In this document: positions 7,768 to 50,300 of the stretch, in pieces | Position numbering within the stretch: the first letter of the stretch is position 1 | How the letters are laid out: each line of letters opens with the position of its first letter | Source: Candidatus Moraniibacteriota bacterium | GTDB lineage: Bacteria; Patescibacteriota; Minisyncoccia; Moranbacterales; GWC2-37-73 | Direction of reading: 5' to 3' | DNA length: 64,000 bases | Assembly: GCA_035390125.1 (NCBI GenBank) | Contig: DAOOTD010000002.1 | Location: 105,908 to 169,907, forward strand | Made by a program: the position numbers and the translations under genes | Notes under the pieces: generated by a model | What the model was told of the DNA's origin: nothing | What the model saw: the letters and a program-made list of their open reading frames with translations, nothing else | Database searches by the model: none

Positions 7768-8211
7768 ATGATCAGAAATAAAACAAAAACTATGGGTAAA
7801 ATATTATTTATTTGCATAACTTTTGTTTTTGCACTTTTTCTTTTGTTTTCACCTGTTGCACATGCAGCTATTATTACTTGCGGAGCAACCTCAGATGACA
7901 TGTGCACTTTGTGTGATATGGTTGCAGGATTCAATACTATTATCCAGTATCTAATGAAAATTTCAATCGGTGTTGCGCTGCTGGCCATATCCATAGGAGG
8001 GATTTTGTATGTTGTTTCTGCCGGTGAACCTGGAGCTGTTGAAACGGCAAAAAAAGCAATCAAAAACGGAATCATCGGATTTGTTATTGTTTTTTCAGCC
8101 TTTATTATAATCGGTACAGTGATAAGTTATTTAGGAGTACAGGAAGGAATGGGAATACGTTCAGGAGTAACCTGGGGGACATTTGACTGTACAGCAGCAG
8201 GTGTTCGATAG
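7768..8211 (+). CDS. VirB2/TrbC-like T4SS pilin-family protein (CPR-type pilin)
   Basis: Signal peptide (…SPVAHA), Cys-containing mature N-terminus, then TM helix – VSAGEPGAVETAKKAIKNG – TM helix. Same architecture as the paralogs at 8264, 24506, 24852, 25323 and 25730. Confidence 0.55.
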   Translation: MIRNKTKTMGKILFICITFVFALFLLFSPVAHAAIITCGATSDDMCTLCDMVAGFNTIIQYLMKISIGVALLAISIGGILYVVSAGEPGAVETAKKAIKNGIIGFVIVFSAFIIIGTVISYLGVQEGMGIRSGVTWGTFDCTAAGVR

Positions 8212-8263
8212 TAAACCAAAAAGTAATTTATCGTTAGATTTTATTAATAATTTTTTTAAAAAA

Positions 8264-8896
8264 ATGATAAAATTTAAAAAAAATAAACTATTTTTAATGG
8301 CCGTTTTTGTTTTTTTGGCAATGATTTTTTTAAACCCCGTTAACGTATTTGCAGAAGATGCGGTAGTGAACTTTACTAACCCTCTAGGAGATATTACTAC
8401 TCTAGAAGGACTTGTATCTAATTTACTGTCAGCCGTTCAAAAAATAATAGTCTCATTGGCTTTGGTTTTTATTGTGGTGGGTGCGATAATGGTCCTTGTT
8501 TCAGCGGGAAGTCCGGAAACTGTGGAAAAAGGGAAAAAAGCTATTACTATGGCAATAGTAGGTCTCACAATTGGAATTGCAGCCCCATCGATATTAAAAG
8601 AAATCGCGAATGCTGTCGGTTGGAATTGTCCTGAAGGAGCTACAGATTGTGGAACTCTTACTGATGCACTTAATTTTTCCGATATTGCACTAAATGTTCT
8701 TAGTTTTCTTTTAGGTATAGCGGGAATACTAGCCATGATAATGCTGGTCATTGGAGGTATCATGTATTTGACTTCTGCTGGAGATGAAGAAAGAGTAGAG
8801 CAGGGCAAGAAAACATTCAAGTATTCCGTAATCGGAATCATAGTCATTATGAGTTCCATGATAATAGTAAGACAAATTGCTAATCTTTTTTTATAA
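8264..8896 (+). CDS. Tandem double-domain VirB2/TrbC-like pilin
   Basis: Signal peptide (MIKFKKNKLFLMAVFVFLAMIFLNPVNVFA), then two consecutive pilin units (…VSAGSPETVEKGKKAITMAIVG… and …LTSAGDEERVEQGKKTFKYSVIG…). The ORF track begins at an upstream TTG (8183) overlapping the previous gene; the ATG at 8264 is preferred. Confidence 0.55.
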   Translation: MIKFKKNKLFLMAVFVFLAMIFLNPVNVFAEDAVVNFTNPLGDITTLEGLVSNLLSAVQKIIVSLALVFIVVGAIMVLVSAGSPETVEKGKKAITMAIVGLTIGIAAPSILKEIANAVGWNCPEGATDCGTLTDALNFSDIALNVLSFLLGIAGILAMIMLVIGGIMYLTSAGDEERVEQGKKTFKYSVIGIIVIMSSMIIVRQIANLFL

Positions 8897-8934: not shown

Positions 8935-9387
8935 ATGCTTATAAATGTTCCACAATATATAGATGTCGAAGATAAAATTGCAGGTCCGCTCACAGCTAAG
9001 CAGCTGGGGTGGGTTATAGGGCTAGGCATTACTCTTTTGGTAATGTGGAATATGTTGCCTAAGGTTTTGTTTTTTATTATAGGCATACCACTGTCCATTG
9101 CATTTTTAGCCTTTGCTTTTTACAAGCCATATGGTCAGCCACTGGGTAATTTTGTCATTTTTGGGATACTATATTTTTTCCGTCCAAAAATATATTTCTG
9201 GCAAAGAACTCCTCAGAAAAATATTCCCAGCAAGCAAAAAACAAAAACTGAAGAGTCCCGTCCGCCAGAAAAAAAACTTGATACTGAATCAATAATGGAT
9301 TTAGCAAGGGTCATGGACAGCGGTGGTTCTGAACGCAATGAAAGGATAGAAGAACTTTTAAAAAACGTTCCAATTAAAAAGAAATAA
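8935..9387 (+). CDS. PrgI/VirB3-like small conjugation membrane protein
   Basis: 150 aa; N-terminal VPQYIDVEDKIAGPLTAKQ motif then two TM helices and a K/E-rich tail. Directly upstream of the VirB4-family ATPase, as PrgI precedes PrgJ in Gram-positive T4SS. Confidence 0.45.
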   Translation: MLINVPQYIDVEDKIAGPLTAKQLGWVIGLGITLLVMWNMLPKVLFFIIGIPLSIAFLAFAFYKPYGQPLGNFVIFGILYFFRPKIYFWQRTPQKNIPSKQKTKTEESRPPEKKLDTESIMDLARVMDSGGSERNERIEELLKNVPIKKK

Positions 9388-9397
9388 CAAAAAAACC

Positions 9398-10087
9398 ATG
9401 GAATTATTGCACTCAAAAAATCTAACCAAAGGAACTTCCGGAGGAGGAAGTACCCAAAAATATGTCGACGTTGAAGAAGTCCGTGATGGGGTAGTTATAC
9501 TGAAAGATGGATCTATGCGCTCAGTACTTTTGGTTTCTTCAATTAATTTTGACTTAAAAGCTACAGAAGAACAAGATTCTATTATTAATCAATATCAAAA
9601 CTTTCTTAATTCACTAGATTTTCCAATTCAAATAGTGATAAGTTCGCGTAAACTGAATATTGCTCCTTATTTGGAATATCTTAAAAAAAAGGAAACACAA
9701 CTGACTAATGAATTGCTGATTTTACAGCTGGAAGAATATCGTAACTTCATAAAAAGCCTTACCGATGTTTCAAGTATAATGTCTAAATTCTTTTATGTGG
9801 TGGTGCCTTTCTACCCAGTTGAAAATGTTAAAACAAGTGTTTTTGACAGATTTTTCGGAGCTGCAAATACCCAGATGTCTGCTATGCGGAGAAGAGAACT
9901 TTTTGAAACTTACAAAAATCAGCTTTGGCAAAGAATAGAACATGTCAGTTCTGGTTTAAGCAGTACTGGCGTAAAAGCTGTTCCGCTTAAAACTGAAGAG
10001 CTTATAGAACTTTTGTATAATTCATATAATGCTACGACACATAATAATGCAATAATAAGAGATGTAGACAAGATTGAACTCAAATAA
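9398..10087 (+). CDS. VirB4/TraC-family ATPase, N-terminal domain (separate ORF)
   Basis: 229 aa; sequence (…VDVEEVRDGVVILKDGSMRSVLLVSSINFDLKATEEQDSIINQYQNFLNSL…) resembles the N-terminal domain of Gram-positive VirB4 homologues (TcpF/PrgJ type). Ends 72 nt before the ATPase ORF in a different frame. Confidence 0.5.
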   Translation: MELLHSKNLTKGTSGGGSTQKYVDVEEVRDGVVILKDGSMRSVLLVSSINFDLKATEEQDSIINQYQNFLNSLDFPIQIVISSRKLNIAPYLEYLKKKETQLTNELLILQLEEYRNFIKSLTDVSSIMSKFFYVVVPFYPVENVKTSVFDRFFGAANTQMSAMRRRELFETYKNQLWQRIEHVSSGLSSTGVKAVPLKTEELIELLYNSYNATTHNNAIIRDVDKIELK

Positions 10088-10158
10088 AAAAATAATCCAA
10101 ATTAATTTAAAATAAGTAGCTTCTCAGAAAGAGATTCAAATCTTATTTAATACTATAA

Positions 10159-11982
10159 ATGCTTGGAATAAACAAAAAAAATGACAAAAAACAAACTGTA
10201 AAAAGGGATCCGATTTTAGAAAGTGAGGAATTATATCAGCGTGGTGTTGCAACTATAAAAGATCTTATCGCCCCTTCTGCAATGAAGGTAAGTTCAAATT
10301 ACTTGCAAATAGGCGAAACGTTTGCCAGAACCGTTTTTGTTGTTGCCTATCCTAGATATTTGCATACAAACTGGTTTTCTCCGATTATAAACATTGATTT
10401 TTCCATGGATACTGCGATGTTTATACATCCTATTGATACAGTTGAAATATTAAAAACCCTCAGGAAAACATCAACCCAAGTGCAATCGCAGATTCACATG
10501 GAAGAACAGTCGGGAAAAATCCGAAATCCAATTTTGGAAACAGCCATTGAAGATATAGAAGATTTGCGCGATAAGCTCCAGCAAGGAACTGAAAAATTTT
10601 TCCGCTTCGGGCTCTACATGACTTTATATGCAAATAATTTGGAAGAACTTGAAAAAATACATTTGCAAATAGAAGCACTTCTCGAGGCGCAAATGGTTTA
10701 CATCAAGCCAGCGGTGTTAAAAGCTGAACAAGGTTTTTCCTCTACTTTGCCATTGGGAAATGATGAAATAGATATTGCTAATAATCTCAATACAGCACCA
10801 CTTTCTACGACATTTCCTTTTGTATCTTCAGATCTTTCATCTAATGAGGGTATTCTTTATGGGATTAATCGACACAATAACAGCCTTATTCTTTTTGACA
10901 GATTCCAAATGGAAAATGCCAATATGGTAGTTTTTTCTAAATCTGGCGGAGGGAAAAGCTATACTGTGAAACTCGAAATATTCCGTTCGCTGATGGTTGG
11001 AACCAATGTTGTTGTCATTGATCCAGAAAATGAGTACAAATATTTGTGTGAAACAGTAGGGGGAACTTTCATAAAACTTTCACTTAATTCTCCATATCAT
11101 TTGAATCCATTCGATCTTCCTAAAATTGGCGATGAAGAAGATCCTGAAGATGTTCTTAGGAGCAACATAGCCAGTCTTATAGGACTGCTTCATCTTATGC
11201 TTGGCAATGTAACTCCCGAAGAAGATTCAATTCTGGATATAGCTATTCGTGAAACATATGCGATGCGTGATATTACTGCCCGAAGCAATTTTAAGGCTCT
11301 TAATTCATCTTCTTTTCCGACCATGTCGGACCTTTATGCTGTTATTCGAAATTCAGAAGGCGGAGAATCAATAGCAAAAAGATTGGAAAAATACACAGAG
11401 GGTATTTTTGCTGGGGTGCTTAATCATACAACAAATGTACAGGTTGATAATCAAATGGTTGTCTTTAATATACGCGATCTTGAAGAACAGCTTAGGCCCA
11501 TTGCCATGTATACAGTCTTGCAGTTTATCTGGAATGAAATGCGGTCTTCACTTAAAAAAAGAATTGTAGTTGTGGATGAAGCTTGGGTTATGATGCAAAA
11601 TGATGATGCAGCATCTTTTTTATTTGGTATTGCAAAGCGTTGCAGAAAATATTATACAGGCTTAACAACAATAACTCAGGACATAGCAGATTTTATGACC
11701 TCGCGCTATGGAAAGCCGGTAGTAACTAATTCGTCATTGCAGCTGCTATTGCGTCAGTCTCCGGCAGCTATAGAAACAATTTCTGACACCTTTTTTCTAA
11801 CTGATCAGGAAAAGTTTCTCTTATTGGAAAGTGGGGTTGGAGAAGGAATTCTTTTTGCGGGAGCAAAGCATGTTGCAATAAAAGTTATTGCTTCATATCC
11901 TGAAGATCAAATCATAACATCTGATCCGCGCCAATTGATTGAAATTGAACAAGCCAAAAAAGAATTGGAAGAAGATGAATAA
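10159..11982 (+). CDS. VirB4/TraC/TrbE-family type IV secretion ATPase (ATPase-domain ORF)
   Basis: 607 aa; Walker A FSKSGGGKSY, Walker B VVVDEAW, overall CagE/TrbE/VirB4 domain order. Confidence 0.8.
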   Translation: MLGINKKNDKKQTVKRDPILESEELYQRGVATIKDLIAPSAMKVSSNYLQIGETFARTVFVVAYPRYLHTNWFSPIINIDFSMDTAMFIHPIDTVEILKTLRKTSTQVQSQIHMEEQSGKIRNPILETAIEDIEDLRDKLQQGTEKFFRFGLYMTLYANNLEELEKIHLQIEALLEAQMVYIKPAVLKAEQGFSSTLPLGNDEIDIANNLNTAPLSTTFPFVSSDLSSNEGILYGINRHNNSLILFDRFQMENANMVVFSKSGGGKSYTVKLEIFRSLMVGTNVVVIDPENEYKYLCETVGGTFIKLSLNSPYHLNPFDLPKIGDEEDPEDVLRSNIASLIGLLHLMLGNVTPEEDSILDIAIRETYAMRDITARSNFKALNSSSFPTMSDLYAVIRNSEGGESIAKRLEKYTEGIFAGVLNHTTNVQVDNQMVVFNIRDLEEQLRPIAMYTVLQFIWNEMRSSLKKRIVVVDEAWVMMQNDDAASFLFGIAKRCRKYYTGLTTITQDIADFMTSRYGKPVVTNSSLQLLLRQSPAAIETISDTFFLTDQEKFLLLESGVGEGILFAGAKHVAIKVIASYPEDQIITSDPRQLIEIEQAKKELEEDE

Positions 11983-12015: not shown

Positions 12016-12519
12016 ATGCCTGAAGATATTGCAAGAAATTTTAAAAACAACAGCGATAACCTTGATAGAGCTAGGCGAGAAAGGCCCAGCTCTTTTAGCA
12101 ATGGAAATCCTGTTGATATGACAAAAAATATTTCTAAAGCGGCTATAGCTAAAGGTTTTTTCCCTTTACTGAAAGAAATAGATCTTTCCAAAGATATGCC
12201 ATTTGTAGCTGCGCTTCTGGGTGCTTTAGGAAAAGATGTCTCTGACTTTGTTTTTGCTGAAACAATAATACTTTCCATGCTTACCTCAATTCTTTGTTCT
12301 ATATTTATTTTCATGATGTTAATTCTTGCTGGTTCTGGGCGAAGAAATAAGTCGGCAAGAGGCTTTGCTAAAAAAGCACTTACATTAATAGGAGGCGGAG
12401 CAGCTGATTCATTGCCCGGAGTAGATTTTTTACCAATTGAAACACTTACTGTCGGAATGATATATATTATGGTGTTGGCAGAAAGAGCAAGTGAAAAAAA
12501 TAATAAATTCAAACTCTAA
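12016..12519 (+). CDS. Hypothetical membrane protein (T4SS-cluster associated)
   Basis: 167 aa ORF with ATG on the same strand as the flanking operon. Charged N-terminus plus two hydrophobic segments. The overlapping minus-strand ORF looks low-complexity and was not chosen. Confidence 0.3.
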   Translation: MPEDIARNFKNNSDNLDRARRERPSSFSNGNPVDMTKNISKAAIAKGFFPLLKEIDLSKDMPFVAALLGALGKDVSDFVFAETIILSMLTSILCSIFIFMMLILAGSGRRNKSARGFAKKALTLIGGGAADSLPGVDFLPIETLTVGMIYIMVLAERASEKNNKFKL

Positions 12520-12609: not shown

Positions 12610-14136
12610 ATGTCTTCTAAAATATATTCTGCCGCAACTATAGGTCTGGACGGAGAAATTGTAGAAGTTGAAGTTGATATTCTAGGATCCGGCCTGCACA
12701 ATTTTTCAATCGTTGGTCTCCCGGATATTGCAATCAAGGAGTCGCGTGATCGTGTTTCGAGTGCTATAAAAAATAGCGGATTTAAGCCACCACATCAGTG
12801 CGGTCGCATTACGGTGAATCTAGCTCCGGCAGACTTGCCAAAGGCCAGCCCTATTTATGATCTTCCTATCGCTATGGGATTTTTGCTTGCGACCAAACAA
12901 TTGCAATTTGATTTTAATGGCAGGATGATTGTAGGAGAACTTTCTCTTGACGGGCGCATACGTCCTATACAGGGAACTTTACCTATAGCTCTCTTGGCAA
13001 AAGAAAAGGGGTTTAATGAATTATATGTTCCATTAGAAAATGCAGCTGAAGCCAGTGTAGTTAAGGGAATAAATATTGTACCTGTAGATACTCTTTATTC
13101 TTTGGCTGATCATTTTTCTGGCAATAGAAAAATTGATTATTTCCCATCATTAGACGGGGATGTCCTATTTTCAACAGCAGATTATGAAATAGATATGGCT
13201 CATATTAAAGGTCAACAACATGCCAAGCGTGCTCTGGAAATTGCAGCAGCTGGTGGGCACAATGTTATTTTAAACGGACCTCCAGGATCAGGAAAGACTT
13301 TATTGGCTAAGGCTATTCCTACTATTCTCCCCCAGTTAACATTGGAAGAAGCATTGGAAATAACAAAAATATTTTCAGTTTCCGGAAAACTTAGGAAAGG
13401 ACAACCTCTAGTTACTTCAAGGCCATACAGAAATCCACATCATAGTGCCAGTAGTGTTTCTTTGATTGGTGGGGGGAGTTATCCAAAGCCTGGAGAAATA
13501 AGCTTAGCGCACAGGGGAGTTTTGTTTTTGGATGAGTTTGCTGAGTTTCCTAAAAGTGTTTTAGAGAATTTGCGCCAGCCACTTGAGGATGGTATGATAA
13601 CAATCTCAAGAGCCAAAGGATCTTTATATTTTCCAGCCCGGTTTATTTTGGTGGCCGCTATGAATCCCTGTTTTTGCGGGAACGCTACTGATCCGGAAAA
13701 AATATGCACATGTACGCCAGCACAGATTTCCCGGTATAAGCAAAAAATTTCTGGACCAATTATGGACCGCATTGATCTGCACATTGAAGTGCCACGTTTA
13801 AGTTTTGACAAGCTTCAAGAAGGAATAAGTGAAGAAAAAAGCGAGCAGATACGTGCCAGAGTGGAAGCAGCCAGAAAAATACAAGCTAAAAGATTTGAAA
13901 ATTTGTCGGTAATTTCTAACAGCGAAATGTCTTCTGATCAAATAAGACAATTTTGTCCTTTAGACGAAGAGTGCAAACAGCTTTTAAGAAATGCTGTATC
14001 AGCTCTAAAGCTTAGTGCCCGAGCTTATCACCGTATAATAAAAATCGCGCGTACTATTGCAGATCTTTCAAATAGTGAAAATATTCAGCCGGCACATATT
14101 GCCGAAGCCATTCAATACAGATTCAAAATGGAATGA
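12610..14136 (+). CDS. comM: YifB/ComM-family Mg-chelatase-like AAA+ ATPase
   Basis: 508 aa; N-terminal Lon-like domain (MSSKIYSAATIGLDGEIVEVEVDI), Walker A GPPGSGKT, Walker B LFLDEF, C-terminal ChlI/MoxR-like region. Confidence 0.85.
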   Translation: MSSKIYSAATIGLDGEIVEVEVDILGSGLHNFSIVGLPDIAIKESRDRVSSAIKNSGFKPPHQCGRITVNLAPADLPKASPIYDLPIAMGFLLATKQLQFDFNGRMIVGELSLDGRIRPIQGTLPIALLAKEKGFNELYVPLENAAEASVVKGINIVPVDTLYSLADHFSGNRKIDYFPSLDGDVLFSTADYEIDMAHIKGQQHAKRALEIAAAGGHNVILNGPPGSGKTLLAKAIPTILPQLTLEEALEITKIFSVSGKLRKGQPLVTSRPYRNPHHSASSVSLIGGGSYPKPGEISLAHRGVLFLDEFAEFPKSVLENLRQPLEDGMITISRAKGSLYFPARFILVAAMNPCFCGNATDPEKICTCTPAQISRYKQKISGPIMDRIDLHIEVPRLSFDKLQEGISEEKSEQIRARVEAARKIQAKRFENLSVISNSEMSSDQIRQFCPLDEECKQLLRNAVSALKLSARAYHRIIKIARTIADLSNSENIQPAHIAEAIQYRFKME

Positions 14137-15089
14137 TAAGAATTTCAAAAAAACTAAAATACATCTTTTTTTTAACTGGACTGGCAATCCTTTTTTTCTT
14201 TATATTCAATAAAGATAAAAATGATATTGCTATAAACTTTAATTCTGAAAAAAAGAAAATTGAATTGACTGATAGCAATATCACTTTTGAATTAATGTCT
14301 GCGGCCAAAACTGTAGAAGATTTTATGAACGAGCAAAAAATAGTCCTGGAAGAAAATGATTTAATTGTGCCTGATAAAAATAAAGAAATTTTTTCTGGTA
14401 CTCATATAATCATCAAACGAGCAAAAAACATAACAATTAAAGAAGCGGATAAAAAAACTAAAACGCATACTCTTTTGGATACTATCGAGCAAGCTGTTTG
14501 GGAGAATAAAGAAATAACTTTGTCCGATGATGATATTACGAATCCATCAAGGCGAGTATTGGTCAAAGAAGAAATGACAATTATTGTTACACATGTTGTC
14601 ATAAAAGAAGAAATAAAAAAGCAGGATATCGATTTCAAAACAATTTCTAATGAAGATGATAAATTAGGTTGGCGCGTTAAAAAAGTCACCCAAAAAGGAA
14701 TAAAAGGCACGCGTGAAATAAAATATAAAGTAGTTTATCATGACAATAAGGAAATATCGCGCAAAATTCTGGAAAGCAATGTTACAAAAGAACCAATTGA
14801 AGAAATTGTTACGCAAGGAACATATATGAAATTAGGCAAGGCTAATAAAGGACAGGGTACCTGGTATGCCTGGAAAGGGGGACTTTTTGCTGCCAGCACG
14901 ACTCTTCCGCGCGGCGCATATGCCAAGGTGACCAATGCGGAAAATGGCAAATCGGTCGTTGTCCAAATCAATGATTATGGCCCGCAAGGTAAAGGACGCA
15001 TTATTGATTTGGACAAAGTTGCTTTTGAAAAAATAGCTTCATTAGGTGCGGGAGTTATTGGAGTCAAAGTGGAGCAAGTACTCAATTAG
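14133..15089 (+). CDS. RlpA-like double-psi beta-barrel (DPBB) domain protein, secreted/anchored
   Basis: 318 aa; N-terminal TM/signal anchor. C-terminal GTWYAWKGGLFAAS…VVVQINDYGPQGKGRIIDLDKVAFEKI matches the RlpA/expansin-like DPBB fold motif. Start overlaps the comM stop (ATGGAATGA). Confidence 0.55.
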   Translation: MIRISKKLKYIFFLTGLAILFFFIFNKDKNDIAINFNSEKKKIELTDSNITFELMSAAKTVEDFMNEQKIVLEENDLIVPDKNKEIFSGTHIIIKRAKNITIKEADKKTKTHTLLDTIEQAVWENKEITLSDDDITNPSRRVLVKEEMTIIVTHVVIKEEIKKQDIDFKTISNEDDKLGWRVKKVTQKGIKGTREIKYKVVYHDNKEISRKILESNVTKEPIEEIVTQGTYMKLGKANKGQGTWYAWKGGLFAASTTLPRGAYAKVTNAENGKSVVVQINDYGPQGKGRIIDLDKVAFEKIASLGAGVIGVKVEQVLN

Positions 15090-18178: not shown

Positions 18179-19090
18179 TTATTTCTTTTTTCCGTGAAAC
18201 TGCTTGTGTATTTCTTTGAGTTGCTTGTTGGTAATGTGCGTATAAATTTGAGTTGTCGTTATGGAAGAATGTCCCAACATTGTTTGCACGCTTCGGATGT
18301 CAGCTCCATTAGAAAGTAAGTCTGTGGCAAAACTATGCCTTAGCGTGTGCGGATGTACATTTTTCACGATACCTGCTTTGGCTGCATAAAATTTTACTAT
18401 TCTTTGAATTGAACGTGGGGTCAAGCGCTTTGTTTTTTCGTTTCCAATTCCCCCTTTTTCGGATAATCGAATAAATAAAGCCGGATCCAAGTCCATGCGC
18501 TTGCTCAAATATTTTTCCAACGCCTCTTTTGCAGTATCAGAAATGAAAACTATTCTCATTTTATCGCCCTTGCCAATCACGCTAAATTCTTGTCTGGAAA
18601 TGTTCAATTGGTCGCAGTTTATATTTATAAGTTCAGAAACACGAAGTCCTGCCGAAAAAAGAAGCTCCAAGATTGCCCTATCGCGCATGGACTTTATGTC
18701 TGATCCTTCTGCGGCATGCAAAAGGCGGTCAAGCTCACCACTATCAAGAAACTCAATTTCATGTGATGGATTTTTACCAACTTCCAATTTTTCAGCGGCC
18801 AAACTTTTAATATCGCGCTTGGCAAGATATTTCAGAAAACTGCGGATGGCTATTATATGATAATTTTGAGTAACTTTTTTCAGTTCCTTGCCATGGCTAT
18901 CTTTCTGCCGGTTCAGATATAAACGGTAGCTCCTTATAAGCTCAGCAGTGATATCCTTGGGTTCGGATATTTTTGCCCAGGTCAAAAAGCGCTTGAGATA
19001 ATGATGATAATTCTCAATAGTCTTCTGCGAACGGTTACGTTCAATCTCCAAATATTCAAGAAATTCAGTCAGAAGGTTTTTTAATTTCAT
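18179..19090 (-). CDS. xerC: Tyrosine site-specific recombinase (XerC/XerD-like)
   Basis: 303 aa; catalytic R…HxxR…Y pattern (HTLRHSFATDLL, …QIYTHI), N-terminal SAM-like core-binding domain. Confidence 0.8.
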   Translation of the reverse strand: MKLKNLLTEFLEYLEIERNRSQKTIENYHHYLKRFLTWAKISEPKDITAELIRSYRLYLNRQKDSHGKELKKVTQNYHIIAIRSFLKYLAKRDIKSLAAEKLEVGKNPSHEIEFLDSGELDRLLHAAEGSDIKSMRDRAILELLFSAGLRVSELININCDQLNISRQEFSVIGKGDKMRIVFISDTAKEALEKYLSKRMDLDPALFIRLSEKGGIGNEKTKRLTPRSIQRIVKFYAAKAGIVKNVHPHTLRHSFATDLLSNGADIRSVQTMLGHSSITTTQIYTHITNKQLKEIHKQFHGKKK

Positions 19091-19505: not shown

Positions 19506-20567
19506 TTGCGTAATTATTCAGCCTTTGCAGTGGTGGTATCAAGTTCACTTCTTGTTTCAGCAACAAATGTTGCCTCAGGCAATAATTATGGCAAACTTCT
19601 TTTTGGTTATTGGGATGCATCAGCTGAGACCATTCCAGCGGTGAATGGCAGTAAAATAAGCGGACAGGTAAATAAAAAAAATGATTTAGCTCTTGTTCCC
19701 CTTTCCAAATCAAACACATCCATTGAACCAGAAAAAAAAGAAGATGATTCAAACAGGAGCATTATAAAGGATGACGGAATAATGCTGGTTTCTGGCGGAG
19801 CCAATCCGATGAAAGATCCTGAAGAAGAGGGCGGGGTTAAAATGTATATTGTACAATCCGGTGACACTCTCGGTTCAATCGCTGAAAAAAATGGAGTTTC
19901 GGTTAATACTATTTTGTGGGCAAATGACATCAGTAATGCCGACTCCATAATGCCAGGAGATACTATGTTCATTCTGCCTGTTTCAGGAGTAAAATATGTC
20001 ATAAAATCGGGAGACAATCTTGATGCTATCGCTAATAAATTTAAAGCAGAAAAAGATAAAATAATAGCCTTTAATGATTTGCCAGCGAATGGAGAAATAA
20101 AAGTGGGAGAAGAAATAATTATTCCTGATGGCCAGGGAGAAGCTCCTAAGCCAGCTGTTCCAAGCAGCAGCCAATCCTTAATCAATAAGAGGCAATATGC
20201 GAATACTGCAGGAGGAGTTCCCCAGATTACGGGCAGAATTCTTTCAGGGAAAGCCGGCACTGGTCATAGATTTCCATATGGATATTGCACTTGGTTTGTC
20301 GCCCAGAAACGTTATGTTCCCTGGGGTGGCAACGCTGGAACATGGCTGTACCATGCAAAAGCTGCCGGGTATGCAACCGGAAAAACTCCACGACCAGGAG
20401 CTATCGTAGTGACTACCGAGAACAGATATTATGGTCATGTGGCTTATGTTGAAAAAGTCAGCGGAAACAGTTTTACTGTTTCTGAAATGAATTATGTCGG
20501 TTATGCAAAAACAAGTCGCAGAACAATCTCAACTTCAAGCAGAGTTATTAAAGGTTTCATTTATTAA
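19506..20567 (+). CDS. Secreted peptidoglycan hydrolase with two LysM domains and a C-terminal CHAP amidase/peptidase domain
   Basis: Signal peptide; LysM repeats (YIVQSGDTLGSIAEKNGVS…, YVIKSGDNLDAIANKF…); CHAP Cys (GYCTWFVAQKR) and His (GHVAYVEKV). The ORF-track start is a TTG at 19506; the true start is uncertain. Confidence 0.75.
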   Translation: MRNYSAFAVVVSSSLLVSATNVASGNNYGKLLFGYWDASAETIPAVNGSKISGQVNKKNDLALVPLSKSNTSIEPEKKEDDSNRSIIKDDGIMLVSGGANPMKDPEEEGGVKMYIVQSGDTLGSIAEKNGVSVNTILWANDISNADSIMPGDTMFILPVSGVKYVIKSGDNLDAIANKFKAEKDKIIAFNDLPANGEIKVGEEIIIPDGQGEAPKPAVPSSSQSLINKRQYANTAGGVPQITGRILSGKAGTGHRFPYGYCTWFVAQKRYVPWGGNAGTWLYHAKAAGYATGKTPRPGAIVVTTENRYYGHVAYVEKVSGNSFTVSEMNYVGYAKTSRRTISTSSRVIKGFIY

Positions 20568-20749: not shown

Positions 20750-22711
20750 ATGAATCTGATCTCGAAAAACAAAAAATTTTTCTGCAAAATCAAATTATTT
20801 TTTGGAATTTCCAGGGTTAAACTGGCAAGTCTTTTGCGGGACAAAAAATTCCAAACTTTTGTGGTCGCCGGATGCATTTTTCTTTGCGTCTTTTTTTTGG
20901 CGGTTCATGGGGTCTTTGCCGCTGACGCTGTTCCTGAAAAACCCGAAGAACCGGGTTTATTAAGTAAATTTTTTGGGGGAATACTTGATGGGGCAAGTGC
21001 AGTTTTTGTCACTGCCATATCCTTTATCTTGAGTGCAATTCAAGGCGTTATGAGTTTTCTAATCGGCGTGGCAGCTTCTCTTTTTTCAGCAGTTATTAAT
21101 CCTGATTTAATTTCCGGAGATAAAGGTTTATTGAACAATAATCCAGTTGTTAAGGATATCTGGATTATGGTGCGGGATACTTTCAATATGTTTTTTATTC
21201 TAGTCCTTCTTTTTTCCGCCTTCTGCACTATTTTCCAGATCGAAAAATGGAACCTTAAAAAAGTCTGGCTCAACATTCTCATCAATGCCCTGCTGGTTAA
21301 TTTCAGTTTTCCAATTGCATGCTTTTTTATTGATGTTGCGAATGTAGCTATGTATTATTTTGTTAATTCTATGTTTGGTGACAATACTGGCGCAGTTACA
21401 GGAAACGCAATTTTTGCCCAGTTGGGGGATGAATCAAGACTTTCGGCATTGTGGGGCCATGATGCTGATGGAACTACGATGCTAATGTATCAGGTTATGA
21501 ATATCATAATGTCTTTTATTTTGGGAATAACACTCTTGGTTTGTGCAGTTCTTTTTGCTATAAGGCTTATAGCCCTGGTAATCCTGGTTATGTTTTCGCC
21601 GATAGGTTTTGTCGGTTACATTTTTCCCGCAACCAGTAAATTTGCAGACGACTGGTGGAAAAATCTTTTCAGCTATTCTTTTTTTGGTCCGATAATGATT
21701 TTTGTCATAGGAGTTGCTGTCAAAATAAACCAATCAATAGGTGAAAATATATTTAAACAGTCGGCCGCTGACAATGCTGCATCGGTTCCTGGCGCAAGCG
21801 AATGGATTGCCAGTGCTTCCATGTTTGCTATTCCCATAATCATTTTGTGGATGGGCATGGGAGTAGCAAAATCATTGGGAATCGCAGGGGCGGATACAGT
21901 GGTTGGGGCAGGACAGAAATTTGCAAAATTTGCCGGTACAGCTACAGCCATGGCAGCTGGCGGAAATTGGGCTGCAAAGAATTGGAAGATGTATAAAGAA
22001 AAGCGTGATGAACGCCAAAAAGAGATTGACAAGAAACGTTTTGGGGGAAGCTTCGCCAAAGGACTCAATAAATGGGAAGATACTGGAATTGGTTTTGCAG
22101 GTGAAAAAATATCAAAAGGTATTGGAAAAGCTACTGGTGGCAAATGGACACCTAAGTTTGGAGAAAATGCTAAGGCAAGAGTCAAAGGATATCAGAACAC
22201 GGAATTTGATGAATTAGCTAAAAAACAGGCTGAGAGAATTAAGAATTCTGAAGACACTGGACATACTGCACAACAAATGAATGATTTTATTAAAAATAAT
22301 AATCAAATAACAGACGAATCAAAAGATTCAGAGGTAAATGATTTCGTTGGCAGATACAAACAAATGAGAGAAGATCCAGGAGCAAAAGCTGCTTTTGAAT
22401 ATAACATTAGAAACAATGCGGACAATATAAGGCAGTCAATTGAACAAGGAAAAATAGAGGCACAAAAATTAGTTGATAATGGTACTTTTGAAGAGGGATC
22501 TAATGAACATAAGGCCGCAATGAATTCTTTCCAAAAATCTCACATGGAGTCAATTGTAAAAAATCACTGGGCTCATTTAGCTCAAGAAAATAAGAACGCC
22601 CAGAAAAGGAAGAAAGGCGAAAAAATTAAGGATGATGAGCATAAGGCACCTCCTCCACCTCCTCTACCTCCTCCACCAAAACCTGCAAAACAGAGAGCTG
22701 GTTTTGTTTAA
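20750..22711 (+). CDS. VirB6/TrbL-like polytopic membrane protein with proline-rich C-terminal tail
   Basis: 653 aa; signal/anchor then about 7 hydrophobic helices over the first 370 aa, then a long hydrophilic K/E/Q-rich C-terminal domain ending KAPPPPPLPPPPKPAKQRAGFV. Call based on topology and neighbourhood only. Confidence 0.4.
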   Translation: MNLISKNKKFFCKIKLFFGISRVKLASLLRDKKFQTFVVAGCIFLCVFFLAVHGVFAADAVPEKPEEPGLLSKFFGGILDGASAVFVTAISFILSAIQGVMSFLIGVAASLFSAVINPDLISGDKGLLNNNPVVKDIWIMVRDTFNMFFILVLLFSAFCTIFQIEKWNLKKVWLNILINALLVNFSFPIACFFIDVANVAMYYFVNSMFGDNTGAVTGNAIFAQLGDESRLSALWGHDADGTTMLMYQVMNIIMSFILGITLLVCAVLFAIRLIALVILVMFSPIGFVGYIFPATSKFADDWWKNLFSYSFFGPIMIFVIGVAVKINQSIGENIFKQSAADNAASVPGASEWIASASMFAIPIIILWMGMGVAKSLGIAGADTVVGAGQKFAKFAGTATAMAAGGNWAAKNWKMYKEKRDERQKEIDKKRFGGSFAKGLNKWEDTGIGFAGEKISKGIGKATGGKWTPKFGENAKARVKGYQNTEFDELAKKQAERIKNSEDTGHTAQQMNDFIKNNNQITDESKDSEVNDFVGRYKQMREDPGAKAAFEYNIRNNADNIRQSIEQGKIEAQKLVDNGTFEEGSNEHKAAMNSFQKSHMESIVKNHWAHLAQENKNAQKRKKGEKIKDDEHKAPPPPPLPPPPKPAKQRAGFV

Positions 22712-47166: not shown

Positions 47167-47343
47167 AAATACTTAAAGGACTTTTTCCTGGTTAATGATT
47201 TTTTAATTGATAATAGATGTCTCTTGGATTAATCCTACTTGTGGTAGGTTTTTTATTATGATTATTTTTTGTAATTTTTGTCTATTTATAGTACAATTAC
47301 ACTAAACTTGAACGGAATAGGAATATTTAAACAAAAAATAATT

Positions 47344-50300
47344 ATGGTAAAAGTTTCTGATAAACAATTAATTAGAGACAAGGAAAAAGAAACACAAACC
47401 GGGAAGCTTCTGAAAAAAATGAGTGGCCAGTCAGAAGAGGAAATCGCATCCCAGCTAGCTGCTGAATGTGGGCTTGCTTATGTCGATTTGAATATTTTTC
47501 CAGTGAGCTCAGATGACATGCGTTCTATTAGTGAAGAAGAATCAAGGAGGTACAAAATGATAGTTTTTCAGAAAGCTGGCAAAGAACACAGAATCGGGGT
47601 TGTCAATCCTACGAGTCAAGAAACCATATCTTTTATAGAAAAACTTAAAAATGAAAACGGATGGTTAATTCATTTGTATGTTATTTCGAATTCTTCTTTT
47701 AATAAAATATGGAAAAGATATGCTGCTATACCTTTTCTGGAAAACCTGGAATCAATGCAGATATCTCTCAGTGGCAAAGATTTAGATGATTTTGATAAAG
47801 AATTTGGAAATTTACTCGAATTAAAGAAACGTATAAATGAAATTCCCACTTCTCAGATAATTTCTATAATCATGGCAGGGTCCGTAAAGATGAAGGCAAG
47901 TGACATACATTTTGAACCGGGTGAACAAGAAGTACGTATGAGATTTCGCATAGATGGAGAACTTCAGGATATAGCTAGTTTTCCATTAGACACTTATCAT
48001 TTCATTTTGTCACGTATAAAAATGATGGGTAAAATGAAAATAAATGTACGTGATATTGCACAAGATGGCCATTTTTCTGTTGATATAGAAAATGGCAAAA
48101 TAAATGTAAGAACCAATATAATTCCCGGAAATCACGGAGAGTCAATAGTTATGCGTATTTTGAGTCAGGCTGACATAATGTTGGGAATTGAAGATTTGGG
48201 ATTGAGGGGATTAGCCTATGAACGGTTACAAAAGGAAGTTTCAAAACCGCATGGCATGATTTTAACAACAGGGCCTACTGGCAGTGGAAAGACTACGACC
48301 CTTTATGCTCTTGTTAATAAGCTCAACACCGCAGGAGTTAAAATTATAACAATCGAGGATCCAATTGAATATGAAGTTAAAAATATCTCTCAAACTCAGG
48401 TTGAAAAAGGAAGAAGCTATACTTTCGCAGAAGGGCTCAGAGCCATTGTACGTCAAGATCCAGACGTTATTTTAGTAGGTGAAATCCGTGATGATGAAAC
48501 AGCAGATATAGCTGTTAATGCAGCTTTAACCGGTCACCTTGTTCTTTCTACATTGCATACAAACAATGCCCCGGCATCAATACCAAGGTTTGTAGAGCTT
48601 GGTATAAAACCTAATTTAATATCACCTTCAGTGAATGCATTTATTGCGCAAAGGCTTGTACGCAAGCTTTGTCCACATTGCAGAGAAGAATATGCTCCGG
48701 CGCGTGAAACAATCGATTCTATTAAAAAGATTCTTTCTATAATTTCACCTAAGGCAAAAGTAGAAATACCAAAAACAGTTGAAAAACTATATCGTCCAGT
48801 CGGATGTTCTAAATGCCACAATATTGGATTTAAAGGACGCATTGGAATCTTCGAGATCTTAACGATAACCGAACCAATAGAAAAACTTATTTTGGAAATG
48901 GGTAGTGAAAGGGAAATAACACAGGCTGCGCTGGAAGATGGAATGATAACAATGGCGCAGGATGGAATTTTAAAAGCTATCGAAGGACTGACTTCCATGG
49001 AAGAGGTTTGGCATGCAACAGGCCAGACAGAATTTCTTGAAGAAATATATACAAAATTAATGGAGCAGTCGCTATCCAGGTCAGTTGAAATTCACGAAGA
49101 AGATCTGAAACTAGTTTCAGAAAACATGACCTCAATTGAATCTTTAGGTAAATTCTTACAAAACTCCAATCAAAAAGAAGTGGCTAATTATATTTTTGCT
49201 AGCAGTTTATTACTTAATGTTGGAGATATACACATAGAACCCGAAGAAAAAGTAGTAAAAATAAGATACAGAATGGACGGAATTTTGCAAACAATTGCAG
49301 AAATTCCAATTAACGAGTATCCCAGTTTGTTGGGAAATATAAAATTTTTAAGCGGATTCTCTTCTGAAATAAGGGGAGGAGTCATGGATAGTCGTTTTAC
49401 TATTGCATTAGAAAAACCATATAAAAATATAACTGAAACAAAAGTAGATGTTCGTGTATCAATAATACTTGGGGGGTATGGAGAGACAGTCGTTATGAGG
49501 CTTCTAAATAAATCATCTGTTGCTCTTGATTTAGAGAAACTCGGTATTCGCAAGCAAAACATGGAAAAAATAATTGAAGAGACGAGAAAACCAAACGGAA
49601 TATTTTTAAACACAGGGCCTACAGGATCCGGCAAGACCACGACACTTTATAGCATTATGAAGATTTTAAATAAACCTGAAGTGAAAATAATAAGCGTTGA
49701 AGATCCGATTGAATATCAGCTAGAAGGTATACTTCAAACTTCTGTTAATGATAATGAAGGATATACTTTTGGCACCGCTTTGCGCGCGCTTCTGCGTCAA
49801 AATCCCGACATTATGATGATTGGTGAAATTCGCGATGAAGAAACAGCCAATATAGCAGTTCAAGCTGCTCTGACTGGGCACTCTATCCTTTCTACTCTAC
49901 ATACAAATAATGCGGCTGGTTCTATACAACGTTTAATTAATATGGGAGTACGTAGTGATGATTTAGCAACAGCTGTCAATGCTTTGATGGCGCAAAGGCT
50001 TGTGCGTAAGCTTTGTGATTGCAAAACAAAAAGACAAATGACGGAAGAAGAAAAGAATAAAGTCAAAAAAATACTTCAGAACGTGTCTGACAAATCTGGA
50101 GTGGCTATTCCACCAATAGAAAGTGTTTATGAACCAAAAGGCTGTGATAAATGTAATGGCGTAGGATATAAAGGCAGAACAACAATAAGCGAGGTTTTTG
50201 TAATCGATCGAGACATAGAAGAATTGATTATGCAAAGCGCTTCCGCCACACAGCTTCAAGATAAAGCAGTGGAAAATGGAATGATAACAATGGAACAAGA

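What the first reader, a model, noticed from the sequence alone, without database searches (positions are those of the whole stretch)
9398..11982. VirB4 ATPase encoded as two separate ORFs (N-terminal domain and ATPase domain)
ORF 9398-10087 resembles the N-terminal domain of Gram-positive VirB4 homologues. ORF 10159-11982 begins in the segment that normally follows it (…DLIAPS…) and carries the ATPase motifs. Together they are about 836 aa, the normal VirB4 length. They are separated by 72 nt of AT-rich sequence, sit in different frames, and the second start has an in-frame TAA immediately upstream and no obvious SD. This is either a genuinely split two-subunit VirB4, or a pseudogenising frameshift or assembly error.
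Basis: partly seen in the sequence, partly recalled or inferred. Interest (0 to 1): 0.6.

Follow-up and report, generated by a model that had tools for sequence, protein, structure and literature searches.

The report
Naturally two-gene VirB4 secretion ATPase
The motor ATPase (VirB4) of this ultra-small bacterium's type IV secretion system really is encoded as two adjacent genes, but this split is conserved, under selection and already described for Patescibacteria, so it is a genuine but ordinary feature, not a broken gene.

Summary
ORF1 (9398-10087, 229 aa) and ORF2 (10159-11982, 607 aa) lie in different frames, separated by 71 nt (not 72) of 18% G+C spacer.

It is not a frameshift or an assembly error:
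- Three independent metagenome assemblies are 100% identical across the whole span.
- A relative 95% identical in DNA has the same layout, with dN/dS of 0.014 (ORF1) and 0.003 (ORF2).
- In 77 of 77 related species genomes with upstream DNA, a separate ORF1 homologue (42-78% identity) sits just upstream of the ATPase. Spacers run from -29 to +206 nt and all three relative frames occur.

ORF1 is a stand-alone TrsD-like / Pfam PF26593 "TraC-like" protein. It corresponds to the first ~200 residues of VirB4, and its model matches only R388 TrwK/VirB4 in the PDB. ORF2 carries the rest of the N-terminal domain plus the ATPase domain.

A sister clade (Ca. Colwellbacteria) has the two parts fused in one ~790-aa protein. 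Both ORFs are colinear with it, and the break falls in a variable linker with nothing missing.

Quiñonero-Coronel et al. 2025 already report TrsD as the most abundant T4SS component of Patescibacteria, usually next to virB4. Verdict: real, functional, already known. Interest is low.

The parts
7768..8211 (+). VirB2-like T4SS pilin gene (147-aa ORF; gene callers start it a little later)
   Evidence: Pfam T4SS_pilin PF18895, E 2.4e-9. NCBIfam Mbov_0395 pilin-like, E 6.7e-7. A tblastn match lies upstream of the ATPase on the same strand in 36 related loci, although pilin paralogues may cross-match.
8183..8896 (+). Second pilin gene with two T4SS_pilin repeats. The true start is probably downstream of the TTG at 8183 (callers give 210-231 aa).
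   Evidence: Pfam T4SS_pilin E 3.4e-24 in 2 stretches, and TrbC/VirB2 E 7e-10. Gene calls in the identical loci L083 and L084.
8935..9387 (+). PrgI family (VirB3-like) membrane protein, 150 aa, ending 10 nt before ORF1
   Evidence: Pfam PrgI PF12666, E 2.1e-9. Found upstream of the ATPase on the same strand in 73 related loci.
9398..10087 (+). ORF1: stand-alone TrsD-like / PF26593 'TraC-like' protein (229 aa), equivalent to the first ~200 residues of a full-length VirB4
   Evidence: NCBIfam hits to VirB4 N-termini and to TrsD/TraD. 4607 homologues, with the best 120 all 185-243 aa stand-alone proteins and most 226-231 aa. 149 of the 150 best cluster representatives are short. 40% identity to residues 5-211 of the fused 797-aa P0259. 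The AF2 model (pLDDT 81.8) matches only TrwK/VirB4 chains in the PDB. dN/dS 0.014.
10088..10158 (.). 71-nt AT-rich intergenic spacer (18% G+C) with stops in all three frames and no terminator-like hairpin
   Evidence: In close relatives the spacer is 4-203 nt of largely unrelated sequence. A short element is shared with L081, L082 and L002.
10159..11982 (+). ORF2: VirB4 ATPase lacking its first ~200 residues (607 aa). It consists of a basic N-terminal tail, the second half of the N-terminal domain, and the RecA-like ATPase domain.
   Evidence: NCBIfam CD1110-family VirB4, 373 bits against a cut-off of 325, positions 178-734 of 752. Pfam P-loop_TraG and AAA_10 above their cut-offs, and CagE_TrbE_VirB below its cut-off. 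PDB 4AG5 VirB4 C-terminal domain, E 1.7e-48 over residues 224-587. Walker A and B intact. 52% identity to residues 226-796 of fused P0259. dN/dS 0.003.
12016..12519 (+). 167-aa ORF with hydrophobic stretches and no family match, conserved just downstream of virB4. A possible further T4SS component.
   Evidence: No Pfam, NCBIfam or PADLOC hit. A homologue lies at the same position on the same strand in 37 related loci. It is called as a gene in L081 and L083-L085.
14133..15089 (+). G5 + DPBB (RlpA-like lytic transglycosylase) protein. Candidate cell-wall hydrolase of the cluster (context only).
   Evidence: Pfam G5 E 2.7e-18 and DPBB_1 E 3.2e-13. Syntenic in 26 loci.
19506..20567 (+). LysM + CHAP peptidoglycan hydrolase. 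Candidate VirB1-like function (context only).
   Evidence: Pfam LysM E 3.1e-22 and CHAP E 7e-19.
20750..22711 (+). TrbL/VirB6-like polytopic membrane protein, 653 aa (context only)
   Evidence: Pfam TrbL PF04610, E 1.6e-6, 28.5 bits against a cut-off of 25.9.

Best explanation
The VirB4 motor of a chromosomal, Patescibacteria-type (monoderm, MPF-FATA-related) type IV secretion system is naturally encoded by two adjacent genes that are probably co-transcribed.

ORF1 makes a ~229-aa soluble TrsD-like / 'TraC-like' protein. It is the first subdomain of the VirB4 N-terminal domain. ORF2 makes the remaining N-terminal subdomain plus the P-loop ATPase domain.

The most likely mechanism (inferred, not shown) is that the two polypeptides associate non-covalently to rebuild a complete VirB4 protomer. 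That protomer would oligomerise at the membrane on the PrgI/VirB3-like protein encoded just upstream. It would then power assembly of the VirB2-like pilins and/or substrate transfer.

The cut lies in a poorly conserved linker. Covalent continuity there appears dispensable, and related lineages carry either the split or the fused form.
For: Shown:
1. Both ORFs are intact and reproducible. L083, L084 and L085 come from three different JGI samples and are 100% identical over ORF1, spacer and ORF2. L081 (95% nt identity) has the same layout.
2. Purifying selection acts on both ORFs: dN/dS 0.014 (ORF1) and 0.003 (ORF2) against L081, and about 0.04 for ORF1 against L082.
3. The split is conserved. 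77 of 77 loci from distinct species with upstream DNA have a separate ORF1 homologue (42-78% identity) ending in a stop just before the ATPase gene. Relative frames are 26/19/32, spacers run from -29 to +206 nt, and none is fused.
4. The family is very large and mostly stand-alone: 4607 hits, with the best 120 all 185-243 aa. There are 2277 clusters at 50% identity, and 149 of the 150 best are 102-443 aa.
5. Fused relatives give 'Rosetta stone' evidence. A clade of 775-807-aa proteins (Ca. Colwellbacteria and others) carries PF26593 plus the VirB4 domains in one chain. ORF1 16-214 aligns to P0259 5-211, and ORF2 29-601 to P0259 226-796. A multiple alignment places the break in a variable linker with no conserved block missing.
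6. Fold evidence agrees. The ORF1 model matches only R388 TrwK/VirB4 (top 14 hits, probability 0.99-1.0). The model of the fused relative matches full-length TrwK (E 1e-29, TM 0.66).
7. ATPase motifs are intact. Pilins, PrgI and VirB6 provide T4SS context. There is no terminator-like hairpin in the spacer.
8. Literature: TrsD is the most abundant T4SS component in Patescibacteria, with 1664 of 2272 homologues next to virB4. The homologue in Ca. Southlakia epibionticum is listed as essential (PMC12102498, citing the Tn-seq of PMC10633639).
9. The same PrgI, TrsD-like, short ATPase order occurs on Firmicutes plasmids.
Against: - No direct evidence here that the two proteins bind each other. No complex model could be made, and the tools give no PAE or interface data.
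- ORF1 scores far below the curated cut-off of the TrsD/TraD NCBIfam model (32 against 200 bits), so it is a distant relative of the staphylococcal protein.
- Co-transcription is inferred only from the spacing and the lack of a terminator. In some relatives the spacer exceeds 200 nt.
- The linker of the fused model is only moderately low in confidence (pLDDT 65-68, with a short helix predicted), so it is not clearly disordered.
Confidence: 0.88

Rival explanations
1. Pseudogenising frameshift or nonsense mutation. On this view an originally single ~830-aa virB4 was broken in this lineage, and ORF1 and/or ORF2 are decaying.
For: The ORFs are in different frames, there is an in-frame TAA just before the ORF2 ATG, the spacer is AT-rich, and there is no SD. 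Fused relatives exist in another Patescibacteria clade.
Against: dN/dS is 0.014 and 0.003. Both ORFs are intact in 77 of 77 species, down to 42% identity for ORF1. ORF2's frame has 8 stops upstream between 10027 and 10156, so a single indel cannot explain the layout. Lack of SD is the rule in this genome, at 40 of 43 genes. Walker motifs are intact.
Confidence: 0.01
2. Assembly or sequencing error, meaning an indel or mis-join in the 10080-10160 region of this contig.
For: AT-rich, homopolymer-rich spacer. A real artefact of this kind does occur in the fused clade: the 600-aa P0289 results from a 100-N scaffold gap.
Against: Contigs from three different JGI metagenomes are 100% identical across the span, and a Logan assembly at 95% identity has the same 71-nt spacer layout. 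The exact ORF1 protein is on 14 contigs. The window has no N run there.
Confidence: 0.01
3. The two products are joined during expression, by programmed ribosomal frameshifting, translational bypass or protein splicing, to give a single VirB4 chain.
For: Only the fact that fused homologues exist elsewhere.
Against: The 71-nt spacer has stops in all three frames. The relative frame and spacer length vary freely among relatives (-29 to +206 nt, all three frames), and the spacer sequences are unrelated. No intein-like insertion is present in either ORF, since the alignment to fused forms is colinear without extra domains.
Confidence: 0.01
4. ORF1 is an independent accessory factor that descends from the VirB4 N-terminus but no longer acts as part of the ATPase. 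It could be, for example, an assembly chaperone, an adaptor to the PrgI/VirB6 membrane platform, or a regulator present at a different stoichiometry.
For: TrsD has no assigned function (PMC12102498). In Gracilibacteria the TrsD homologues are not next to virB4 (PMC12102498). Many family members have extra C-terminal extensions of 300-443 aa, and the Firmicutes versions are 318-322 aa. The variable, sometimes long spacers allow independent translation.
Against: ORF2 lacks exactly the segment that ORF1 supplies, and fused relatives show the two as one fold matching full-length TrwK. Adjacency is strict in 77 of 77 loci. This reading overlaps with the best explanation rather than excluding it.
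Confidence: 0.09

Closest known systems
TrsD homologue + VirB4 of the Patescibacteria (CPR) T4SS (Quiñonero-Coronel et al. 2025, Microb Genom, PMC12102498; Ca. Southlakia epibionticum T4SS, Wang et al. 2023, PMC10633639)
   Same: Same phylum-level lineage; the nearest genomes are Ca. Moranbacteria/Paceibacteria. Chromosomal cluster with VirB2-like pilins, PrgI/VirB3, a TrsD-like protein directly upstream of virB4, and a VirB6-like protein nearby. The paper counts 2272 TrsD homologues, 1664 of them next to virB4, and lists the Southlakia one as essential.
   Different: Nothing substantive; this window is one more instance. The sections of the paper read here (section 13 and term searches) describe TrsD only as remotely homologous to the VirB4 N-terminus. 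They do not mention that a sister clade (Colwellbacteria-like) carries the fused form, or that the break lies in a linker.
TrsD/TrsE of Staphylococcus plasmid pGO1/pSK41 and TraD/TraE of pIP501 (NCBIfam NF041427 'TrsD/TraD family conjugative transfer protein'; pGO1 subclass of MPF-FATA)
   Same: A stand-alone ~200-aa protein homologous to the VirB4 N-terminus. ORF1 residues 30-102 match the model at E 7.5e-8. That it precedes a short VirB4-like ATPase in the operon rests on my own knowledge of these plasmids, not on a tool result.
   Different: The score is far below the family cut-off (32 against 200 bits), so this is a distant relative. Those systems are plasmid-borne conjugation machines with relaxase and coupling protein and no pilins. 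This one is chromosomal and has pilins. No relaxase or T4CP domain appeared in the 26 ORFs of the window that were scanned; the smaller ORFs were not scanned.
Full-length monoderm VirB4 proteins: CD1110 family (CTn2), Mycoplasma ICE Mbov_0397 family, PrgJ/TcpF; and the fused PF26593-containing VirB4 of Ca. Colwellbacteria
   Same: ORF1 plus ORF2 are colinear with them (CD1110 3-78 and 178-734; VirB4_plasma 98-233 and 292-892; P0259 5-211 and 226-796). Same Walker motifs and the same fold as TrwK.
   Different: Those are single polypeptides of 750-900 aa. Here there is a stop codon, a 71-nt spacer and a new start in the inter-subdomain linker.
R388 TrwK / VirB4 (PDB 7O41-7O43, 8RTB, 8RTD)
   Same: The only solved structures matched by the ORF1 model (14 chains, probability 0.99-1.0). 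They also match the fused relative end to end (TM 0.66). In R388 the VirB4 N-terminal domain contacts VirB3 and VirB8 tails (established knowledge from those entries and papers).
   Different: Diderm MPF-T system; 12-16% sequence identity; single chain.
CedB/CedD of the crenarchaeal Ced DNA-import system (PMC11868833)
   Same: Another case where the VirB4 N-terminal domain is partitioned between two polypeptides that are proposed to make up one VirB4-like unit together.
   Different: Both Ced proteins carry their own ATPase domain, so they are paralogues rather than a fission product. It is an archaeal system. ORF2 hits the CedB model only weakly (E 4e-12 against a cut-off of 700 bits).

Membership tests
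VirB4/TraC/CagE T4SS ATPase (ORF2) | Score above a curated full-length family cut-off | tested here: met
   NCBIfam NF045971 conju_CD1110: 373.4 bits against a cut-off of 325, model positions 178-734 of 752. It is below the cut-offs of TIGR00929 (124.6 against 643) and VirB4_plasma (292 against 590).
VirB4/TraC/CagE T4SS ATPase (ORF2) | P-loop NTPase with Walker A lysine and Walker B hhhhDE, homologous to the solved VirB4 C-terminal domain | tested here: met
   SKSGGGKS at 260-267 and IVVVDE at 469-474. PDB 4AG5, E 1.7e-48 over residues 224-587. Pfam P-loop_TraG, E 1.3e-27.
VirB4/TraC/CagE T4SS ATPase (ORF2) | Complete N-terminal domain in the same polypeptide | tested here: not met
   ORF2 aligns only from position 178 (CD1110), 238 (TIGR00929) or 292 (VirB4_plasma) onward, and from residue 226 of the fused P0259. 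The missing part is supplied by ORF1.
VirB4/TraC/CagE T4SS ATPase (ORF2) | Encoded with other T4SS components (VirB3-like, VirB6-like, pilin) | tested here: met
   Two T4SS_pilin genes and PrgI lie directly upstream. TrbL/VirB6 lies at 20750-22711.
TrsD/TraD family (NCBIfam NF041427) (ORF1) | Score above the curated cut-off of the family model | tested here: not met
   32.4 bits against a cut-off of 200; E 7.5e-8 over residues 30-102 only. ORF1 is homologous but not a member by NCBI's criterion.
TrsD/TraD family (NCBIfam NF041427) (ORF1) | Stand-alone ~200-aa protein homologous to the VirB4 N-terminus, encoded directly upstream of a VirB4-like ATPase | tested here: met
   229 aa, 71 nt upstream of ORF2. 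VirB4 N-terminal homology. Same arrangement in 77 of 77 related loci and on Geobacillus and C. difficile plasmids.
Pfam PF26593 'TraC-like' (ORF1) | Significant match to the Pfam model | tested here: met
   The precomputed annotation of the identical protein (L083-L085) and of all 120 listed homologues gives PF26593, unmarked, meaning E <= 1e-5. My own hmmscan against the local Pfam copy did not return it, presumably because the model is absent from that copy. This rests on the precomputed hit.
Patescibacteria-type T4SS (Quiñonero-Coronel 2025) | Chromosomal location among housekeeping genes in a Patescibacteria genome | tested here: met
   Neighbours include IF-2, KsgA, UvrD/PcrA, ComM, NusA, PolA, trigger factor and RNase Y. 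The closest loci are Ca. Moranbacteria/Paceibacteria MAGs.
Patescibacteria-type T4SS (Quiñonero-Coronel 2025) | No relaxase or coupling protein in the cluster | tested here: inconclusive
   None of the 26 window ORFs scanned against Pfam showed a relaxase or T4CP/VirD4 domain. Not every ORF of the 64-kb window was scanned, and the rest of the genome is unknown.
Patescibacteria-type T4SS (Quiñonero-Coronel 2025) | VirB4 falls in the Patescibacteria-specific clade sister to MPF-FATA | not tested
   No phylogeny was built. This is supported only indirectly: the best models are monoderm families (CD1110, Mycoplasma), and all 80 closest loci carry Patescibacteria-type record titles or MAG labels.

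The most novel reading that the evidence does not exclude
The split is not neutral. On this reading, separating the first VirB4 subdomain lets the cell control its stoichiometry or its timing of assembly onto PrgI/VirB3, for instance to switch the machine between pilus biogenesis and substrate transfer. Patescibacteria would then have toggled between fused (Colwellbacteria-like) and split (Moranbacteria-like) states as an adaptation. The expandable tails at the cut site, up to ~270 residues of Pro/Ala-rich sequence at the VirB4 N-terminus in some species, would serve as tethers or docking sites. The fused/split dichotomy within the phylum and the linker position do not appear in the parts of the 2025 survey that I read.
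Probability: 0.12. Interest if true: 0.4.

Novelty: already known. Interest (0 to 1): 0.15.

Why it matters
There is little new biology. The main value is for annotation. Pairs of a 229-aa ORF and a 607-aa ORF in Patescibacteria should not be flagged as frameshifted virB4 pseudogenes or 'repaired' by merging. The small ORF should be named a TrsD-like / VirB4 N-terminal-module protein rather than 'hypothetical'.

The T4SS is essential for epibiotic growth in the one Patescibacterium tested (PMC10633639, PMC12102498). Knowing that its motor is a two-chain enzyme therefore matters for any structural or biochemical reconstitution, because both chains would need to be co-expressed. The naturally fused Colwellbacteria-type proteins offer a ready-made single-chain construct and give 'Rosetta stone' support for the interaction.

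Tried and rejected
1. Frameshift or pseudogene: rejected on selection, conservation and stop-codon layout.
2. Assembly error: rejected on three identical independent assemblies. I could not inspect reads.
3. Programmed frameshift or bypass: rejected because relative frame and spacer vary freely.
4. 'No SD' as a sign of a non-functional start: rejected, since only 3 of 43 genes in the window have an SD core.
5. Defence-system reading of the ATPase: PADLOC gave only generic HerA/mad8 P-loop hits for ORF2 and nothing for ORF1. Rejected given the T4SS context.
6. Sequence search of ORF1 against PDB chains found nothing meaningful (best E 0.28, a phage protein). Only the fold search recovered VirB4.
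7. A local Pfam scan of ORF1 gave only noise. The relevant family, PF26593, came from precomputed annotations.
8. A literature search for PF26593 returned nothing. A search for the phrase 'split VirB4' returned no description of this arrangement, only the CedB/CedD parallel. 'TrsD' does not occur in the main text of Guglielmini 2014, although the 2025 paper attributes the TrsD-VirB4 homology to it.
9. The two 600-aa outliers inside the fused clade looked like possible recent re-splits. The one examined (P0289) is a 100-N scaffold gap.
10. Promoter and terminator scan of the spacer: nothing above chance.
Full report
**Observation.**
- ORF1 runs 9398-10087 (229 aa, stop TAA). ORF2 runs 10159-11982 (607 aa). 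Together they make 836 aa.
- They are in different frames. The spacer is 71 nt (10088-10158), not 72. Its G+C is 18%, against 35.5% for the window.
- The codon before the ORF2 ATG is an in-frame TAA, and there is no Shine-Dalgarno core upstream.
- The missing SD means nothing here. Only 3 of 43 long genes in the window have a GGAG/GAGG/AGGA core in the right place.
- Each of the three frames has stops in the junction region. ORF2's frame has 8 stops between 10027 and 10156, so no single indel could join the ORFs.

**What the two proteins are.**
- ORF1 hits the N-terminal ends of full-length VirB4 models: Mycoplasma-ICE VirB4 positions 98-233 of 894 (E 3.9e-11), CD1110 family 3-78, and TIGR00929 18-178. 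It also hits the stand-alone TrsD/TraD family (E 7.5e-8, well below that model's cut-off).
- ORF2 scores above the curated cut-off of the CD1110 VirB4 family (373 against 325 bits), aligned to positions 178-734 of 752.
- ORF2 matches the crystal structure of a VirB4 C-terminal domain (4AG5, E 1.7e-48, residues 224-587). It keeps Walker A (SKSGGGKS, 260-267) and Walker B (IVVVDE, 469-474).
- ORF2 residues ~89-199 also match the end of the Pfam CagE_TrbE_VirB and TraC_F_IV N-terminal-domain models, both below their curated cut-offs. The cut therefore lies inside the VirB4 N-terminal domain, not between that domain and the ATPase domain.
- An AlphaFold2 model of ORF1 (104-sequence alignment, mean pLDDT 81.8) finds only R388 TrwK/VirB4 chains in the PDB. 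These are the top 14 hits, at probability 0.99-1.0. The next hit has probability 0.2.

**Is it an artefact or a pseudogene? No.**
- The exact ORF1 protein is on 14 contigs. Three contigs from different JGI metagenomes (L083-L085) are 100% identical to the window across ORF1, spacer and ORF2.
- A Logan assembly 95% identical in DNA (L081) has the same layout. It gives dN/dS of 0.014 for ORF1 and 0.003 for ORF2. An 88%-identical ORF1 (L082) gives about 0.04, with dS saturated.
- A scan of species-representative genomes with ORF2 returned 80 loci, mainly Ca. Moranbacteria/Moraniibacteriota, with some labelled Portnoy-, Ryan- and Terrybacteria. Several record titles are clearly mislabelled, for example as Bdellovibrionales.
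- In all 77 loci that contain upstream DNA, a separate ORF1 homologue (42-78% identity; about 210-245 aa in most loci) ends in a stop just before the ATPase gene. The other three loci are cut at the contig end.
- In those 77 loci the relative frame is 0, 1 or 2 in 19, 32 and 26 loci respectively. The spacer or overlap ranges from -29 to +206 nt, and none is fused.
- Among close relatives the spacers are 4-203 nt of largely unrelated sequence. The cut is conserved while the spacer is free to vary. That is the opposite of what a recent frameshift, programmed frameshifting or bypass would give.

**Nothing is missing.**
- A search of 1.8 billion cluster representatives with ORF1 found 2277 clusters. 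149 of the best 150 are short proteins (102-443 aa), and one, P0259, is 797 aa.
- P0259 residues 5-211 align to ORF1 16-214 (40% identity). Residues 226-796 align to ORF2 29-601 (52% identity).
- Searching with P0259 revealed a whole clade of fused 775-807-aa proteins, named Ca. Colwellbacteria or Patescibacteria where named. They carry PF26593 together with the VirB4 domains.
- The one 600-aa outlier I checked in that clade is a 100-N scaffold gap, which shows what a real artefact looks like.
- A MAFFT alignment of 14 fused proteins with 18 concatenated split pairs puts every break in the same variable linker, between the conserved '...YNP..EK' and '...DLIAP...' blocks. The fused forms have ~14 residues there. 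The split forms add a short C-terminal tail to ORF1 and a basic N-terminal tail to ORF2.
- In five species the ORF2 tail is expanded by 150-270 residues of Pro/Ala-rich low-complexity sequence.
- The AF2 model of fused P0259 (pLDDT 74.8) superposes on full-length TrwK (8rtd_O, E 1.3e-29, TM 0.66). Confidence dips in the linker (pLDDT 65-68, against 85-93 on either side).

**Context.**
- The pair sits in a chromosomal T4SS cluster. Its order is two VirB2-like pilin genes, PrgI (VirB3-like), ORF1, ORF2, and a conserved 167-aa ORF with hydrophobic stretches.
- A G5-DPBB protein, a LysM-CHAP hydrolase and a TrbL/VirB6-like protein lie within 11 kb, interspersed with housekeeping genes (ComM, KsgA, UvrD, an Xer-like recombinase).
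- No relaxase or coupling-protein domain appeared in the 26 ORFs scanned.
- No terminator-like hairpin lies between ORF1 and ORF2.
- The same PrgI, TrsD-like, short ATPase order is found on Geobacillus and Clostridioides plasmids.

**Mechanism.**
- Shown: there are two intact, selected, always-adjacent genes that together equal one VirB4, and fused homologues adopt the TrwK fold.
- Inferred: the two chains associate to rebuild the VirB4 N-terminal domain. In R388 that domain is the part that contacts VirB3 and VirB8 at the membrane (established knowledge from the 7O41 and 8RTD work). The assembled motor would then drive pilin assembly and/or substrate transfer.
- I put ~0.88 on 'a genuine two-gene VirB4'. 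Within that, I put roughly 0.7 on the 1:1 reconstituted-protomer mechanism rather than a looser accessory role.

**Comparison with what is known.**
- This is the published arrangement. Quiñonero-Coronel et al. 2025 (PMC12102498, section 13) report that TrsD is the most abundant T4SS component in Patescibacteria. [quoted passage not shown]
- They count 2272 homologues in 2221 assemblies, 1664 of them next to virB4. The homologue in Ca. Southlakia epibionticum is listed as essential in the Tn-seq of Wang et al. 2023 (PMC10633639).
- Pfam already has a family for it (PF26593 'TraC-like'), and NCBIfam has NF041427.
- A conceptual parallel is CedB/CedD in Crenarchaea, whose N-terminal domains map to different parts of the VirB4 N-terminal domain (PMC11868833).
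- The only points I did not find in the parts of that literature I read are the fused sister clade within Patescibacteria and the exact linker position of the cut. These are small increments.

**Verdict.** The pseudogene and assembly-error branch is refuted. Novelty: already known. Interest: 0.15.

Noticed in passing
L029, L035, L038, L039, L050 (ATPase genes of 773-881 aa); compare window 10159-10245: In five related species the N-terminal tail of the short VirB4 is expanded by ~150-270 residues of Pro/Ala-rich low-complexity sequence. The insert sits between a conserved N-terminal peptide (MxDRIIFKEDLNKKKSLFGWLGFGKK) and the conserved '...SESEMLYEKGVATL...' start of the fold. The tail at the cut site is thus evolutionarily expandable; its function is unknown.
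   Followed up: partly
P0259 and P0271-P0389; locus L089 544-2937: A whole Patescibacteria clade (Ca. Colwellbacteria-like) carries the fused form (775-807 aa, PF26593 + VirB4 domains). In L089 it lies directly after PrgI and close to rnpA-yidC-dnaA-dnaN. Both fused and split states therefore exist within the phylum. The polarity and number of fission and fusion events were not determined.
   Followed up: partly
window 10112-10158; L081, L082, L002 spacers: The last ~45 nt of the spacer (...AAGTAGCTTCTCAGAAAGAGATTCAAATCTTATTTAATACTATAA-ATG) is conserved in L081, L082 and partly L002, and contains short inverted repeats (TCTC/GAGA, AGATT/AATCT). Other close relatives have quite different spacers. 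Some carry long palindromes: L009 ttccggtagt...actaccggaa, L052 ggcaaatattgttttttt...aaaaaaacaatatttgcc, and L012/L014 gcgcg...cgcgc. These may be small mobile or regulatory inserts.
   Followed up: no
window 12016-12519 (+): A 167-aa ORF with hydrophobic stretches lies directly downstream of virB4. It has no Pfam, NCBIfam or PADLOC match but is conserved at the same position in 37 related loci (23-60% identity). It is a candidate uncharacterised T4SS component.
   Followed up: partly
window 8183-8896 (+): The second pilin gene contains two tandem T4SS_pilin (VirB2-like) repeats in one protein. Its first possible start (TTG 8183) overlaps the upstream pilin gene, and gene callers in identical loci start it later, giving 210-231 aa.
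   Followed up: no
window 47278-50361 (+): A 1027-aa protein has two T2SSE (PilB/GspE-type secretion ATPase) stretches, 758 bits in total. It appears to be a tandem-duplicated or fused type II/IV-pilus ATPase.
   Followed up: no
whole window: Shine-Dalgarno cores are nearly absent: 3 of 43 long genes have GGAG/GAGG/AGGA within -20..-4, and the upstream regions are A/T-rich instead. This matters for start-codon calling in this lineage.
   Followed up: partly
L088 1213-1667 (GCA_964368705.1): The 600-aa 'short' VirB4 (P0289) inside the fused clade is an artefact of a 100-N scaffold gap that removes residues ~90-192. It is a caution against reading every short VirB4 as a natural split.
   Followed up: yes
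L086 4872-5828 and L087 4851-5819 (Geobacillus and C. difficile plasmid records); H17 (Embleya): Firmicutes plasmid records carry 318-322-aa 'hypothetical' proteins homologous to ORF1, between PrgI and a 636-640-aa ATPase. In an Embleya (Actinomycetota) record the ORF1-like match lies under a gene annotated as 'PrgI family protein', which hints at a PrgI-TrsD fusion. A Haloarcula plasmid also has a weak hit.
   Followed up: partly
window 18179-19090 (-): An Xer/phage-integrase-family tyrosine recombinase lies between the virB4 block and the LysM-CHAP and VirB6-like genes. I did not examine whether it is the housekeeping XerC/D or marks an integrated element.
   Followed up: no
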